A stretch of DNA of 64,000 nucleotides, taken from positions 50,986 through 114,985 of the forward strand of contig CAZGQR010000002.1 of assembly GCA_964527765.1 (NCBI GenBank), given 5' to 3'. The translations under genes were made by a program, and so were the position numbers. This document shows, in pieces, positions 19,846-22,017 of this stretch. A model generated the notes under the pieces. The model ran no database searches and was not told where the DNA came from. It saw only the letters and a program-made list of their open reading frames with translations. The stretch's first letter is position 1; each line of letters starts with the position of its first letter. The DNA comes from an uncultured Planctomycetia bacterium. GTDB taxonomy: Bacteria > Omnitrophota > Gorgyraeia > Tantalellales > Tantalellaceae.

Positions 19846-21048
19846 TTAAATGCTGCGGTGCCTGATGGCGTCTTCGCCGAACCTGTCCAGGATACGGTCA
19901 AGAGCTTTATGGAGCCTTTCCTTTTTTATCATCCGGTCGGAGCCCCGGTCGAACAGGTCTCCCTGATGCGAGGGATCGAGAAGATTCGATACGCGGACCC
20001 CGACCAGTCTTATCGCCTTGTTCCTTAGATCAAAGCTCTCCAGATTTCGCACGGATGTTCCATAGATGATGTCTACGAAGTTTGTGGATGTTTTGATCGT
20101 AGCGGATCTGGTATGGGTCCTGAAATCGGCAAATCTTATTTTCAACGTAACGGTCCGTCCTTTCAGTCCGGATTTGCGCAGGCGGCGGGAGACCTTTTCG
20201 CTCAGGAACATCAGTGTATCCATGATCTCGTTCTTTTCGAGGGTATCCCGTTCAAATGTGTGTTCATTGCTGATCGATTTCACGATGTCGGTTGTTTCCA
20301 CCCGGCGCGGATCGATACCGCCGGCAAGTTTCCAGGCATGCTCGCCGTTTTTTCCGAAGATGCCCTCAAGTTCCCTTACATTTTGTCTCGCCAGGTCGCC
20401 GATAGTATGGATCCCCATTTCTTTGAGCGCCGCGCGCGTCCTTTCACCGATGCCCCACAGCTTTTCCACCGGCAGGGGATGAAGGAAGCCCAGCAGGCCC
20501 TTTTGGTCCACCGCTATCATTCCGTCCGGCTTGCCGAGGTCCGAGGCTATTTTTGCGGTCATCTTGTTAGGCGCCAGCCCCACGGAAGCCGTGAGACCGG
20601 TCTCTTTTTTGATCGCGGTCTTGATCCTGCGGCAGGTCTCCAGCGGCGAGCCGAAAAGGCGCCAGCTGCCCGTTATATCCATGAAGGCCTCATCGATACT
20701 GACCGGCTCTATTTCGGGGGTGAACCTTTCCAGGATCCCGAATATCTTATGGGATATCCGGGCGTATTTCGCCATGTCTACCGGCAGGAACACCGCACCC
20801 GGACACCTTTTGTAAGCGGTTGAAATGGGAAGGGCGGAATGGATTCCGAATCTTCTGGCTTCGTATGAACAGGCCGCGACAACACCCCTGCCTTTCCCCC
20901 CTTTTGGATCTGCGCCTACAATGACCGGTTTGTCCCTGCAGGCGGGATTATCGCGCTGTTCTACGGACGCGAAAAAGGCGTCCATGTCGACATGGGCAAT
21001 GTATCTTTCCTTGGCGTTCATGGTATATTTGGCCGGTTTTATGGTCAT
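19846..21048 (-). CDS. dinB: DNA polymerase IV (Y-family translesion polymerase)
   Basis: YIAHVDMDAFFASVEQRDNP...; the 400 aa and domain order are typical of DinB. Confidence 0.9.
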   Translation of the reverse strand: MTIKPAKYTMNAKERYIAHVDMDAFFASVEQRDNPACRDKPVIVGADPKGGKGRGVVAACSYEARRFGIHSALPISTAYKRCPGAVFLPVDMAKYARISHKIFGILERFTPEIEPVSIDEAFMDITGSWRLFGSPLETCRRIKTAIKKETGLTASVGLAPNKMTAKIASDLGKPDGMIAVDQKGLLGFLHPLPVEKLWGIGERTRAALKEMGIHTIGDLARQNVRELEGIFGKNGEHAWKLAGGIDPRRVETTDIVKSISNEHTFERDTLEKNEIMDTLMFLSEKVSRRLRKSGLKGRTVTLKIRFADFRTHTRSATIKTSTNFVDIIYGTSVRNLESFDLRNKAIRLVGVRVSNLLDPSHQGDLFDRGSDRMIKKERLHKALDRILDRFGEDAIRHRSI

Positions 21049-21128
21049 TTAAGATTGTACCACAACATGTTGACAATGATCAGGATTTTACCTATAATTA
21101 AAATTCACCGGATGATTTTTAAGTACGC

Positions 21129-21540
21129 TCCCCGGTAGCTCAATGGTAGTAGCGACTGGCTGTAAATGAGGCCATGACTTATGGAGCGACAGCGAACATA
21201 AGTCATGCGACCGAATTTATCCCGAGCCATAAGTTTTGCGAAGCAAAACAAAATAATCTGGCGAGGGATGAATGTTGCAGCTTCCAAGGGAAACCTTGGT
21301 TGAAAAATTGGGTGAATTCAGGGAATCCTACGGCAGAAATGCTATGGAAACCGTGAGCAAAGCCTGCTGAAGAGACGTTGTGTAAGCAGGAATGTGCAGA
21401 GACTAAGGGATGAGGATCTCTACCAATAAGCCCTGCAAGCGCCCAATACCCTTAGGGGTAATGAGATAGTCCTACCCTTACGGAAACGTAAGAAGGTTGT
21501 AACCAGTAGGTTGTTGGTTCGAGTCCAACCCGGGGAGCCA
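21129..21540 (+). tRNA. Intron-containing tRNA gene, most consistent with tRNA-Asn(GUU). Exon 1 is 21129-21163; exon 2 is 21500-21540 and ends in CCA.
   Basis: Exons: TCCCCGG-TA-GCTC..AGC-G-ACTGG-CTGT | TAA-CCAGT-AGGTT-GTTGG-TTCGAGT-CCAAC-CCGGGGA-G-CCA. The joined exons give a 76-nt cloverleaf with anticodon loop CUGUUAA, a U1:A72 pair, G73 and a TTCGAGT T-loop, all features of bacterial tRNA-Asn. The 5' exon ends in U and the intron ends in G, as group I splicing requires. An alternative junction would give Thr(UGU). Confidence 0.6.
21164..21499 (+). ncRNA. Group I self-splicing intron (336 nt) inserted in the tRNA anticodon loop
   Basis: Contains the conserved core elements R (GTGCAGAGACTA, around 21394) and S (GAGATAGTCC, around 21461). 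A P9-like hairpin CTTACG-GAAA-CGTAAG lies just before the terminal G; a P1-like pairing is possible between the exon end and GGCCA near the intron 5' end. There is no homing-endonuclease ORF. Confidence 0.65.
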
Positions 21541-21547
21541 AATTTAA

Positions 21548-21586
21548 CCCCTTGCGATCAAATAGATCGCAAGGGGTTTTGTTTTT
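21548..21586 (+). terminator. Rho-independent terminator after the tRNA
   Basis: ACCCCTTGCGATC-AAATA-GATCGCAAGGGG followed by TTTTGTTTTT. Confidence 0.7.
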
Positions 21587-21627
21587 GAAACAAAAAATGA
21601 TATACTTGGGTAAAAAAGGAGGTAGAT

Positions 21628-22017
21628 ATGGATGCCGCGGTGTTTATCGCCAGGATTTTTGGCCTGCTTTATCTTGTCGCTGCTATAGGCATGATGGCGA
21701 ACAGGGAATTTTATCAGAAAGTCATGGAAGATTTCTGTAAAAATTCAACCCTGGTCCTTTATGGCGGGCTGCTCGCGCTTATTATGGGAGTCGTGATCAT
21801 CCTGATCCATAATGTATGGGTGGCTAACTGGACCGTGATAATCACGATCATAGGTTGGGCCGGGCTTATCAAGGGTATATGGATAATAGTCTTTCCAGGC
21901 ACGGTCTCCAGGTTCATGCAGGCCTACCAAAAAAATGAAAACCTGATAATGGTTCATTCGATCGCAGCGCTTATCCTTGGCGCTGTTTTGACTTTTTTTG
22001 GATTTTTCGCGGGATAA
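21628..22017 (+). CDS. Small hypothetical membrane protein (4 TM)
   Basis: 129 aa, strongly hydrophobic with coding periodicity; AAAGGAGG RBS upstream. Confidence 0.45.
   Translation: MDAAVFIARIFGLLYLVAAIGMMANREFYQKVMEDFCKNSTLVLYGGLLALIMGVVIILIHNVWVANWTVIITIIGWAGLIKGIWIIVFPGTVSRFMQAYQKNENLIMVHSIAALILGAVLTFFGFFAG

What the first reader, a model, noticed from the sequence alone, without database searches (positions are those of the whole stretch)
21129..21540. tRNA gene (probably tRNA-Asn GUU) split by a 336-nt group I intron in the anticodon loop
The sequence shows a 76-nt cloverleaf only if 21164-21499 are removed.

The intervening block carries the group I catalytic-core signatures R (GTGCAGAGACTA) and S (GAGATAGTCC). 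A P9-like GAAA-tetraloop hairpin precedes the terminal G. The 5' exon ends in U and the intron ends in G, as group I splicing requires.

Bacterial tRNA group I introns are known mainly in tRNA-Leu(UAA) and tRNA-fMet of cyanobacteria and in tRNA-Ile/Arg of a few proteobacteria. Identity elements here (U1:A72, G73, loop CUGUUAA) point to Asn, a host tRNA I do not know as an intron site. The insertion point would be between anticodon positions 35 and 36.

An alternative junction (after U33) would give Thr(UGU), and that is the junction the best P1-like pairing (UGGCU with GGCCA) favours, so the two criteria disagree.
Basis: partly seen in the sequence, partly recalled or inferred. Interest (0 to 1): 0.75.

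Follow-up and report, generated by a model that had tools for sequence, protein, structure and literature searches.

The report
Group I intron splitting tRNA-Asn gene
A tRNA-Asn gene of an uncultured Omnitrophota bacterium is interrupted in its anticodon by a self-splicing group I intron of a kind already described in 2020-2026, so the call is right but ordinary; the one unusual detail is that a small mobile repeat has landed inside the intron.

Summary
Window 21129-21540 is a tRNA-Asn(GUU) gene split between anticodon positions 35 and 36 by a 336-nt group I intron (21164-21499). Rfam Intron_gpI scores 71.3 bits. Intron-aware ARAGORN gives the same junction. The spliced product is 76/76 identical to uninterrupted tRNA-Asn genes at the same dinB-adjacent position in related genomes.

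The true guide sequence is GCAGCU at 21277-21282; it pairs with exon GGCUGU and places the U.G wobble at U35.

The intron is subgroup IA-like (P7.1 between P7 and P3'), not IC3. Its core is about 72% identical to published Nitrospirota tRNA-Asn 35/36 introns. This intron site was catalogued in 2020, and self-splicing was shown in vitro in 2026, so it is not a new host tRNA.

Modestly new points: the phylum (Omnitrophota); a presence/absence and HNH-endonuclease decay series among relatives; and the L1 insert. The insert is a single-arm derivative of a multi-copy GIY-YIG nuclease cassette/MITE family with a strongly covarying hairpin, for which I found no description.

The parts
21070..21098 (+). 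Sigma-70-type promoter TTGACA-17 nt-TATAAT, about 30 nt upstream of tRNA position 1
   Evidence: 12/12 consensus match; it is the only promoter-like site in 20950-21700. Function is inferred.
21129..21163 (+). 5' exon of tRNA-Asn(GUU): positions 1-35, ending in anticodon G34 U35
   Evidence: ARAGORN -i. Exon 1 plus exon 2 is 76/76 identical to the intact tRNA-Asn genes of L007 and L010.
21164..21499 (+). Group I intron, 336 nt, subgroup IA-like, no intact endonuclease ORF
   Evidence: Rfam RF00028 at 71.3 bits. 54-pair model: 97.4% of cells paired and 15 compensatory pairs. The 60-aa ORF at 21174-21356 has no Pfam match.
21158..21163 (+). P1 5' strand (exon GGCUGU); U21163 forms the splice-site U.G wobble
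   Evidence: The MFE fold of 21150-21305 pairs 21158-21165 with 21275-21282, z = -7.3. Exon and guide sequences are invariant in all 7 homologues.
21164..21276 (+). 113-nt insertion in loop L1. Single-arm ('short form') derivative of a GIY-YIG cassette/MITE family: AAAUGAG, hairpin A 21170-21212, CGAAUUUA, hairpin B 21220-21268
   Evidence: L1 is 7-9 nt in N. japonica and L014 but 113 nt here. 60 distinct homologous copies elsewhere. Hairpin A: 12/14 pairs compensatory. Full cassettes carry a 76-aa GIY-YIG ORF.
21277..21282 (+). Internal guide sequence GCAGCU (P1 3' strand); G21277 pairs with U21163
   Evidence: TTGCAGCTTCC is conserved in all relatives and in the published Nitrospirota, Bipolaricaulota and Patescibacteria tRNA-Asn introns.
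21284..21299 (+). P2 hairpin with GAAA tetraloop
   Evidence: 6 bp, 2 pairs compensatory.
21308..21314 (+). P3 5' strand (pairs with 21440-21446)
   Evidence: 7 bp; pair 21309:21445 occurs as U:A, U.G and C:G.
21318..21356 (+). P4-P5-P5a domain: P4 21318-23/21351-56; P5 21327-28/21346-47; P5a 21332-35/21340-43 with GAAA loop. CCUAC...UAUGG resembles an 11-nt tetraloop receptor.
   Evidence: The receptor resemblance is my reading of the sequence and is untested.
21357..21395 (+). P6 (21357-59/21393-95) and P6a (21363-68/21385-90)
   Evidence: Pair 21359:21393 covaries A:U <-> G:C in 3 versus 4 sequences.
21398..21404 (+). P7 5' strand AG(A)GACU with bulged A21400, within element R; pairs with 21468-21473 (element S). 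Presumed guanosine-binding site.
   Evidence: 6 bp; 5 pairs are invariant and 1 is lost in the Nitrospirota sequences. The G-site role is inferred from the canonical group I architecture.
21406..21434 (+). P7.1 insertion between P7 and P3' (stem 21406-09/21431-34), characteristic of subgroup IA
   Evidence: Two of 4 pairs are compensatory (AG/CU <-> GA/UC). Rfam aligns it as a 32-nt insertion relative to the consensus.
21447..21460 (+). P8 hairpin
   Evidence: 5 bp; the closing pair covaries U:A <-> C:G.
21477..21492 (+). P9 hairpin with GAAA tetraloop
   Evidence: 6 bp, 5 pairs compensatory.
21499..21499 (+). Omega-G, last nucleotide of the intron
   Evidence: G in 7/7 homologues, directly before TAACC.
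21500..21540 (+). 3' exon: tRNA positions 36-76, including G73 and an encoded CCA
21546..21588 (+). Intrinsic terminator: 14-bp stem followed by a T tract

Best explanation
Window 21129-21540 is the tRNA-Asn(GUU) gene of a Candidatus Omnitrophota bacterium. It has its own promoter and terminator. A 336-nt group I intron of the already described tRNA-Asn 35/36 (IA-type) family interrupts it between anticodon nucleotides U35 and U36.

Proposed mechanism (inferred from the canonical group I pathway and from published in-vitro splicing of family members):

1. The precursor folds so that exon GGCUGU (21158-21163) pairs with guide GCAGCU (21277-21282), forming P1 with a U21163.G21277 wobble.
2. Exogenous guanosine bound in P7 attacks after U21163.
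3. G21499 then occupies the same site, and the freed U35 3'-OH attacks after G21499. This joins the exons into the loop CUGUUAA and releases a 76-nt tRNA that already ends in CCA.

The 113 nt between the splice site and the guide sequence (21164-21276) are not ancestral intron. They are a two-hairpin, single-arm derivative of a multi-copy Omnitrophota GIY-YIG cassette/MITE that inserted into loop L1. L1 is the same permissive loop that holds an HNH homing endonuclease gene, or its remnants, in relatives. P1 is predicted to close around the insert.
For: Shown by tool results:

- Rfam Intron_gpI 71.3 bits, E 4e-16.
- ARAGORN -i calls tRNA-Asn(gtt) with i(36,336).
- The spliced sequence is 76/76 identical to the intact tRNA-Asn genes of L007 and L010. 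Ten relatives carry an intact tRNA-Asn(GUU) at the same dinB-adjacent position, and L025, L027, L014 and L012 carry the split form at the same site.
- The P2-P9 model with the P3/P7 pseudoknot has 97.4% of cells paired and 15 of 54 pairs compensatory. No shuffle of 500 reaches the observed values, and slid controls give 31-42%.
- The guide sequence and omega-G are invariant in 7/7 sequences.
- The MFE fold closes P1 around the insert, z = -7.3.
- Consensus promoter and terminator flank the gene.
- The core is 72-73% identical to published Nitrospirota tRNA-Asn 35/36 introns classed IA1.

From the literature: members of this intron type self-splice precisely at 35/36 in vitro (PMC13011429).

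For the insert.
Against: - There is no expression or splicing evidence for this locus.
- P1 and the guide sequence never vary, so P1 has no covariation support.
- P10 is weak (2-3 bp, AAC/GUU).
- The 113-nt L1 insert abuts the 5' splice site and could slow or impair P1 docking. P4 carries a G x G mismatch in the Omnitrophota sequences.
- I could not check whether the genome has a second, intact tRNA-Asn gene.
- I did not run subgroup covariance models. 'IA' rests on the P7.1 insertion and on homology to published IA1-labelled sequences.
Confidence: 0.9

Rival explanations
1. The gene is tRNA-Thr(UGU), with the intron inserted after U33 (junction shifted by two bases), as the UGGCU/GGCCA pairing suggested.
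For: A spliced variant 21161|21498 is scored as tRNA-Thr(tgt) by ARAGORN. ARAGORN and tFind make this same call for some family members.
Against: - That junction would make the intron end in U, not G.
- GGCCA lies in the lower stem of inserted hairpin A, which also occurs at 60 unrelated sites.
- The conserved guide GCAGCU pairs with GGCUGU and places the wobble at U35.
- Intact orthologues at the same position read CUGUUAA and match the Asn junction 76/76.
- U1:A72 and G73 fit Asn.
- The published sequencing of spliced products supports 35/36.
Confidence: 0.01
2. The intron is real but no longer splices, for example because the mobile insert in L1 disturbs P1. On this reading the locus is a tRNA pseudogene and another copy supplies tRNA-Asn.
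For: - The insert starts exactly at the 5' splice site.
- No endonuclease is left in the intron.
- P10 is weak.
- The rest of the genome is not visible from the window.
Against: - Every core helix is intact, and all positions invariant in the family are retained.
- The exons are identical to intact orthologues from genomes whose DinB is only about 69% identical.
- The promoter is a perfect consensus and a strong terminator follows.
- P1 is predicted to close over the insert.
- Relatives tolerate 169-225 nt in the same loop.
- No other tRNA of any kind is found in the 64-kb window.
Confidence: 0.08
3. The 113-nt L1 segment is an ancestral, functional peripheral domain of the intron (a P1 extension), not a mobile insertion.
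For: It folds into two stable hairpins inside L1. Hairpin B has a conserved tandem G.A motif that it shares with other short-form copies.
Against: - The closest intron relatives lack it: L1 is 9 nt in L014, and L025, L027 and L012 hold HNH remnants instead.
- The same module occurs in intergenic spacers in both orientations, after tRNA-Pro genes, in inverted pairs, and around GIY-YIG ORFs.
Confidence: 0.03

Closest known systems
tRNA-Asn(GUU)/tRNA-Asp(GUC) group I introns at anticodon position 35/36 ('Asn.4Ug' of Williams 2020, bioRxiv 10.1101/2020.01.27.920355; Nakagawa et al. 2026, mSystems, PMC13011429)
   Same: - Same host tRNA, same insertion point, U-1 and omega-G.
- Same conserved guide GCAGCUUCC followed by a GAAA-capped P2.
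- Same core sequence: 72-73% identity to the three Nitrospirota entries of Table S5.
- Same P7.1 insertion and the same Asn/Thr annotation ambiguity.
- L1 is the site of the HNH endonuclease gene. The L012 ORF is 48% identical to the ORF of Patescibacteria GCA_000503835.1.
   Different: - The host phylum is Omnitrophota. The published survey of complete genomes found 35/36 introns in Patescibacteria, Cyanobacteriota, Nitrospirota, Bacillota_A, Bipolaricaulota and Pseudomonadota; the only Omnitrophota entry seen is an fMet IC3 intron.
- L1 here carries no HNH gene but a 113-nt GIY-YIG-cassette/MITE derivative.
- No splicing experiment exists for this member.
Classical bacterial tRNA group I introns of subgroup IC3 (Anabaena/Nostoc tRNA-Leu(UAA) 34/35; Azoarcus tRNA-Ile(CAU); Agrobacterium tRNA-Arg(CCU); cyanobacterial tRNA-fMet)
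   Same: - Self-splicing intron in the anticodon loop.
- U.G wobble in a P1 built from anticodon-stem/loop nucleotides.
- GAAA tetraloops on P2 and P9.
- Compact core without P5abc.
   Different: - Different host tRNA and insertion position.
- This intron has a P7.1 insertion between P7 and P3' that IC3 introns lack.
- Its homologues are classed IA1 rather than IC3.
Subgroup IA phage introns (T4 td, Twort orf142-I2), from my own knowledge of the literature
   Same: Extra pairing(s) between P7 and P3' (P7.1/P7.2). Endonuclease genes are housed in peripheral loops.
   Different: Those introns sit in protein-coding genes of phages. Sequence similarity to phage records here is marginal: two 60-nt matches, E about 1e-4.
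Palindromic MITEs and free-standing GIY-YIG homing-endonuclease genes (for example Correia elements of Neisseria and the T4 seg genes), for the L1 insert only, from my own knowledge
   Same: - Short multi-copy elements with terminal inverted repeats and T|A-type flanks.
- They lie in intergenic spacers in either orientation.
- A small GIY-YIG nuclease gene is wedged between conserved genes.
   Different: - Here the roughly 57-nt arms are themselves covarying hairpins with an invariant 13-nt loop.
- The cargo is a 76-aa GIY-YIG protein enclosed in a second hairpin (CCCCACACCCAG...CTGGGTGTGGGG).
- I found no description of this family in Rfam or in the searched literature. Transposition or homing has not been shown.

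Membership tests
Group I intron (Rfam RF00028) | Covariance-model score at or above the curated gathering threshold | tested here: met
   71.3 bits against 50, E 4e-16, model positions 1-253. The relative L014 scores 77.5 bits.
Group I intron (Rfam RF00028) | Conserved core helices P3-P8 with the P3/P7 pseudoknot | tested here: met
   54 pairs in 11 helices, 97.4% of cells paired, 15 pairs compensatory, 0/500 shuffles reach the observed values, slid controls 31-42%.
Group I intron (Rfam RF00028) | P1 helix with a U.G wobble at the 5' splice site, formed with an internal guide sequence | tested here: met
   GGCUGU (21158-63) pairs with GCAGCU (21277-82), including U21163.G21277. The MFE fold contains it and it is conserved 7/7, but it is invariant, so there is no covariation support.
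Group I intron (Rfam RF00028) | 3'-terminal guanosine (omega-G) | tested here: met
   G21499; G in 7/7 homologues.
Group I intron (Rfam RF00028) | Guanosine-dependent self-splicing | not testable with these tools
   Shown in vitro for Patescibacteria tRNA-Asn/Asp 35/36 introns (PMC13011429), not for this sequence.
tRNA-Asn(GUU) 35/36 intron family (Asn.4Ug) | Host gene is tRNA-Asn(GUU) | tested here: met
   The spliced product is 76/76 identical to the intact syntenic tRNA-Asn(GUU) genes of L007 and L010. U1:A72 and G73 are present.
tRNA-Asn(GUU) 35/36 intron family (Asn.4Ug) | Insertion between anticodon nucleotides 35 and 36 | tested here: met
   Of the junctions tested, only 21163|21500 yields tRNA-Asn(GUU), and its product, with loop CUGUUAA, matches the intact genes.
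tRNA-Asn(GUU) 35/36 intron family (Asn.4Ug) | Sequence homology of the intron to published members | tested here: met
   72-73% identity over 231 aligned core positions to three Nitrospirota entries of Table S5. The motif GCAGCUUCC-P2-GGUUGAAAAAUYGGGUGAAUUCAGGGAA is shared.
tRNA-Asn(GUU) 35/36 intron family (Asn.4Ug) | HNH homing endonuclease gene in L1 (present in a minority of members) | tested here: not met
   There is no HNH remnant in the window's L1. It is present in the relative L012 (48% identical to the Patescibacteria ORF) and degraded in L027 and L025. Most published members also lack it, so this is not a disqualifying feature.
Subgroup IA | Extra pairing(s) P7.1/P7.2 between P7 and P3' | tested here: met
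   A 29-nt insertion at 21406-21434 has a 4-bp stem with 2 compensatory pairs. A second stem (P7.2) is not clearly resolved.
Subgroup IA | Best score with subgroup-specific covariance models | not tested
   The models are not available here. Published homologues are labelled IA1 in Table S5 of PMC13011429.
Subgroup IC3 (classical bacterial tRNA introns) | No insertion between P7 and P3'; IC3-type core | tested here: not met
   The P7.1 insertion is present, and the homologues are classed IA1 while the tRNA-Leu and tRNA-fMet introns in the same table are IC3.
tRNA-Thr(UGU) with a 33/34 intron | Junction after U33 that gives loop CUUGUAA, with omega-G | tested here: not met
   The intron would end in U, and the orthologous intact genes read CUGUUAA.

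The most novel reading that the evidence does not exclude
The 113-nt L1 insert is a derivative of a so far undescribed, Omnitrophota-wide family of mobile GIY-YIG nuclease cassettes. Each cassette has roughly 57-nt covarying hairpin arms with an invariant 13-nt loop, and a 76-aa ORF enclosed in a second hairpin. The cassettes spawn ORF-less MITEs and insert at T|A(A) sites: stop codons inside conserved operons, tRNA 3' ends and, here, the exon-intron junction of a self-splicing intron.

On this reading the same intron loop has been colonised independently by two endonuclease types (HNH and GIY-YIG), and the hairpin arm is the recognition element of the nuclease.
Probability: 0.45. Interest if true: 0.5.

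Novelty: new member of a known kind. Interest (0 to 1): 0.3.

Why it matters
For the finding itself the value is mostly corrective. Default tRNA finders miss this gene: ARAGORN reports no tRNA in 64 kb. Genome-completeness and tRNA-complement estimates for Omnitrophota MAGs will therefore wrongly report tRNA-Asn as absent unless intron-aware tools and comparison with intron-less orthologues are used. The 2026 paper makes the same point for Patescibacteria.

It extends the tRNA-Asn 35/36 IA intron family to another phylum of ultra-small bacteria. Within one syntenic locus it also shows a full homing-cycle series: intron-less, HEG-bearing, HEG-decaying and HEG-less alleles. Nakagawa et al. found HEG-bearing IA introns at 35/36 only in Patescibacteria and suggested that draft genomes might reveal more, which bears on their horizontal-transfer question.

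The GIY-YIG cassette/MITE family seen in passing may be a useful new example of a structured mobile element. It needs its own study.

Tried and rejected
- **All 5'/3' junction combinations giving 75-77 nt.** Only 21163|21500 combines U-1, omega-G and identity to the intact orthologues. The Thr and Tyr alternatives were rejected.
- **RNAalifold's P6 register.** I rejected G84:C124 etc. in favour of the Rfam-consistent register, because pair 21359:21393 covaries A:U <-> G:C. RNAalifold also paired the guide region with the 3' end, a P10-like plus omega-G pairing; I did not adopt it because it competes with P1.
- **Rfam at permissive E-values on the L1 module and on L014/L011.** No family matched.
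- **Reading the module as a hammerhead-like or riboswitch-like cis-regulatory RNA.** Rejected for three reasons: the core does not fit a hammerhead, copies lie in both orientations relative to genes (21 co-directional, 15 antisense), and G.U and A.C mismatch counts in the stems are equal.
- **Literature search for the 13-nt loop sequence and for GIY-YIG with hairpin inverted repeats.** Only coincidental hits.
- **Viral-contig scan with the module pattern.** One hit, without the stem, so chance. About half of the 121 metagenome pattern matches were also chance matches without a stem.
- **Pfam/NCBIfam on the HNH-like ORFs.** Only a sub-threshold HNH hit (E 0.021) for the published Patescibacteria ORF, and none for the locus-truncated L012 ORF. 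The HNH label therefore rests on the paper's assignment and 48% identity.
- **tblastn of window proteins against module-bearing contigs to test shared lineage.** Uninformative.
- **Filled/empty-site comparison of the PNP/DJ-1 spacer, L014 versus the window.** Too diverged to define exact element ends or a target duplication.
- **blastn of the intron core against phage records.** Two marginal 60-nt matches, not followed.
Full report
**Observation.**
- The region reads as the first-stage reader described.
- ARAGORN in default mode finds no tRNA anywhere in the 64-kb window. With introns allowed it calls tRNA-Asn(gtt) at 21129-21540 with a 336-nt intron at position 36.
- Rfam's group I intron model matches 21260-21493 on the + strand at 71.3 bits (gathering score 50, E 4e-16, full model length). 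It is the only Rfam family that reaches its threshold in the window.
- Elements R (21394-21405) and S (21463-21472), the GAAA-capped P9 (21477-21492), U21163 and G21499 are all present.
- The identical 412-nt precursor occurs in two independent assemblies, L001 and L002.

**Host tRNA and junction.**
- The protein next door (19846-21048, minus strand, a DinB/IMS-family polymerase) finds its best relatives in Candidatus Omnitrophota MAGs, at up to 75% identity.
- Ten of those loci carry an uninterrupted tRNA-Asn(GUU) at the same place, divergent from dinB. L025 and L027 carry a split gene with introns of 394 and 459 nt at the same site, L014 carries a shorter intron, and L012 carries the 5' exon followed by an intron that is cut off by the locus end.
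- Joining 21129-21163 to 21500-21540 gives a sequence 76/76 identical to the intact genes of L007 and L010.
- Among the junctions tested, only 21163|21500 gives tRNA-Asn(GUU), with U-1 and omega-G. Its product, with loop CUGUUAA, matches the intact genes.
- The extra U in the D arm (GCUC AAUGGUA GUAGC) is shared by intact orthologues. It is a lineage trait, not decay.

**Intron anatomy.** I aligned the core of the window intron with L025, L027, L014 and three Nitrospirota tRNA-Asn 35/36 introns copied from Table S5 of PMC13011429. In window coordinates:

| Element | Coordinates | Note |
|---|---|---|
| P1 | 21158-63 / 21277-82 | |
| L1 insert | 21164-21276 | |
| P2 | 21284-89 / 21294-99 | GAAA loop |
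| P3 | 21308-14 / 21440-46 | |
| P4 | 21318-23 / 21351-56 | |
| P5 | 21327-28 / 21346-47 | |
| P5a | 21332-35 / 21340-43 | GAAA loop |
| P6 | 21357-59 / 21393-95 | |
| P6a | 21363-68 / 21385-90 | |
| J6/7 | 21396-97 | GC |
| P7 | 21398-21404 / 21468-73 | bulged A21400 |
| P7.1 | 21406-09 / 21431-34 | |
| P8 | 21447-51 / 21456-60 | |
| P9 | 21477-82 / 21487-92 | GAAA loop |
| omega-G | 21499 | |

On seven sequences this 54-pair model, including the P3/P7 pseudoknot, has 97.4% of cells paired. Fifteen pairs show changes on both sides, no shuffle of 500 reaches the observed values, and slid controls give 31-42%. The segment between P7 and P3', which Rfam treats as an insertion, forms P7.1 with compensatory changes. 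That is the subgroup IA hallmark (from my knowledge of the Michel-Westhof classification), and the published homologues are labelled IA1.

**The P1 conflict.**
- Every family member carries UUGCAGCUUCC just before P2.
- GCAGCU pairs with exon GGCUGU: G21277.U21163, C:G, A:U, G:C, C:G, U.G.
- The distance between the splice site and this guide (loop L1) is 7 nt in Nitrospira GCF_900169565.1 and 9 nt in L014. It is 33 and 97 nt in two other Nitrospirota, 113 nt here, and 169 and 225 nt in L025 and L027.
- An MFE fold of 21150-21305 closes P1, extended by A21164:U21276 and A21165:U21275, around two hairpins, with z = -7.3.
The two criteria therefore do not disagree.
- P10 is weak (AAC of the 3' exon with GUU 21274-76). 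This is my reading and is untested.

**What is known.**
- Williams (bioRxiv 10.1101/2020.01.27.920355) raised the number of intron-interrupted bacterial tRNA classes from 4 to 21. Nakagawa et al. cite that study for the type 'Asn.4Ug'.
- Nakagawa et al. [quoted passage not shown] They showed precise GTP-dependent self-splicing in vitro, with an omega-G-to-C control. They also documented that ARAGORN and tFind often shift the boundary by two bases and call tRNA-Thr(UGU).
- They found 28 such introns in 4,934 complete genomes: 19 in Patescibacteria, 3 each in Cyanobacteriota and Nitrospirota, and 1 each in Bacillota_A, Bipolaricaulota and Pseudomonadota. Twenty-five of the 28 are IA.
- The window core is 72-73% identical to the Nitrospirota entries.
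- The finding is therefore a further member of a described family. Omnitrophota is not among the phyla listed for this site, and the only Omnitrophota entry seen in the table is an fMet IC3 intron. A search for 'group I intron' plus 'Omnitroph*' found nothing on this.

**Evolution at the locus.**
- L012's L1 holds an open reading frame, cut by the end of the locus, that is 48% identical (E 2e-32) to the ORF in the Patescibacteria GCA_000503835.1 tRNA-Asn intron. The paper assigns the tRNA-Asn HEGs to HNH, PF01844.
- L027 retains a shortened frame ending CSNCHREIHAGLLQLP that reads into the guide sequence. L025 has stop codons. L014 and the window have no trace.
- Together with the ten intron-less alleles, and with no correlation to DinB distance, this is the classical gain, decay and loss cycle of a homing intron (inference).

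**The L1 insert.** The insert is AAAUGAG, hairpin A, CGAAUUUA, hairpin B.
- It has homologues outside any intron: in L014 between the PNP and DJ-1 genes, and in L011.
- A metagenome scan with AAATGAG-N11-15-GAGYGAYAGCGAA returned at least 119 stretches. Sixty distinct copies have the full hairpin and a conserved 3' flank that was not in the pattern. The rest lack the stem and are chance matches.
- Hairpin A is supported by 12 of 14 compensatory pairs in 47 sequences, including the lower stem, which played no part in the selection.
- Copies lie in either orientation relative to flanking genes, often abutting stop or start codons, and four lie 2-3 nt after tRNA-Pro genes.
- In at least 15 places two copies face each other across a variable perfect hairpin, giving 163-237-nt MITE-like units. 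There are several per contig and they are usually flanked T|...|A.
- In L100 the central hairpin encloses a complete GIY-YIG ORF (PF01541, 41.9 bits).
- That ORF has 385 homologues at E <= 1e-10, and all named ones are from Omnitrophota.
- Seven distinct homologous cassettes, lodged between rpsD and rpoA, pyrB and pyrC, leuC and leuD, after smpB and elsewhere, all show the same arms around the ORF.
- I therefore read the window's L1 segment as a single-arm, ORF-less derivative of this cassette family that inserted at the T|A of the exon-intron junction. This step is inference; the exact ends could not be fixed.

**Mechanism and status.**
- Shown: homology, structure, junction, host identity and transcription signals.
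- Inferred: that the transcript self-splices by the standard two-step guanosine-initiated pathway to give a mature tRNA-Asn already ending in CCA, and that the L1 insert is tolerated.
- The main residual doubt, about 8%, is that the insert or the weak P10 has inactivated splicing. The intact core, the perfect exons and the consensus promoter argue against that.

**Verdict.** It is a new member of a known kind, of low to moderate interest. The side observation, the GIY-YIG cassette/MITE family, may deserve separate study.

Noticed in passing
window 21164-21276; L014 2166-2262; L011 c372-c219; L085-L203 (60 distinct copies): A two-hairpin module (AAATGAG, a 14-bp hairpin with invariant loop GAGCGAYAGCGAA, CGAATTTA, then a variable perfect hairpin) recurs in many metagenome contigs. 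It lies in intergenic spacers in both orientations. Hairpin A has 12/14 compensatory pairs. No Rfam family and no literature hit.
   Followed up: partly
L100 1985-2370; L209 931-1330; L205, L206, L208, L212, L213 around 900-1330; L146 8268-8700: Full versions of the element carry a 75-76-aa GIY-YIG nuclease ORF inside the central hairpin (CCCCACACCCAG...CTGGGTGTGGGG), flanked by inverted hairpin-A arms. The ORF has 385 homologues, and every named one is from Omnitrophota. The cassettes are wedged into conserved operons (rpsD-rpoA, pyrB-pyrC, leuC-leuD, after smpB). They look like a mobile nuclease cassette with MITE derivatives; mobility is not shown.
   Followed up: partly
L108 5113-5282, L111 1149-1364, L136 1619-1830, L144 8319-8536, L149 165-333, L155 (3 units), L161, L182, L185, L191, L195, L099: ORF-less units of 163-237 nt with two inverted hairpin-A arms, several per contig (7 arms in 15 kb of L155). 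They are usually flanked T|...|A, which suggests a TA or TAA target. No exact target duplication could be established.
   Followed up: partly
L132 977, L137 c7939, L140 3308, L190 c5251: Four module copies start 2-3 nt after the 3' end of tRNA-Pro genes. Together with the copy at the tRNA-Asn splice junction, this hints at a preference for tRNA-proximal T|A sites.
   Followed up: no
L012 c329-c1; L027 c2641-c2417; L025 c515-c347: The tRNA-Asn intron of L012 carries an open HNH-like ORF in L1 (cut by the locus end) that is 48% identical to the HEG of a Patescibacteria tRNA-Asn intron. L027 and L025 carry progressively decayed versions. The published survey found HEG-bearing IA introns at 35/36 only in Patescibacteria.
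   Followed up: partly
window 21129-21163 (D arm 21138-21153) and intact orthologues L005, L006, L007, L010, L024, L030, L036: tRNA-Asn of this clade has an extra U in the 3' strand of the D stem (GCUC AAUGGUA GUAGC, against GCUC AAYGGUA GAGC in L008, L015 and L031). The result is a 3-bp D stem or a bulge.
   Followed up: no
window 21327-21347: P5 reads CCUAC...UAUGG, close to the 11-nt GAAA-tetraloop receptor (CCUAAG...UAUGG). It could dock the GAAA loop of P9 or P2, as in the Azoarcus intron. This rests on sequence resemblance only.
   Followed up: no
Klebsiella phage phiKp_21 LC768485.1 2168-2236; Vibrio phage MG592553.1 63208-63267: Unannotated 60-nt stretches in two phage genomes match the P3-P5 region of the intron (77-81% identity, E about 1e-4). 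They may be unannotated group I introns.
   Followed up: no
L205 1232-1944: Downstream of smpB, two GIY-YIG genes flank a stretch that ends in GGACGCGGGTTCGATTCCCGCCACCTCCA, which looks like the 3' end of a tmRNA gene.
   Followed up: no
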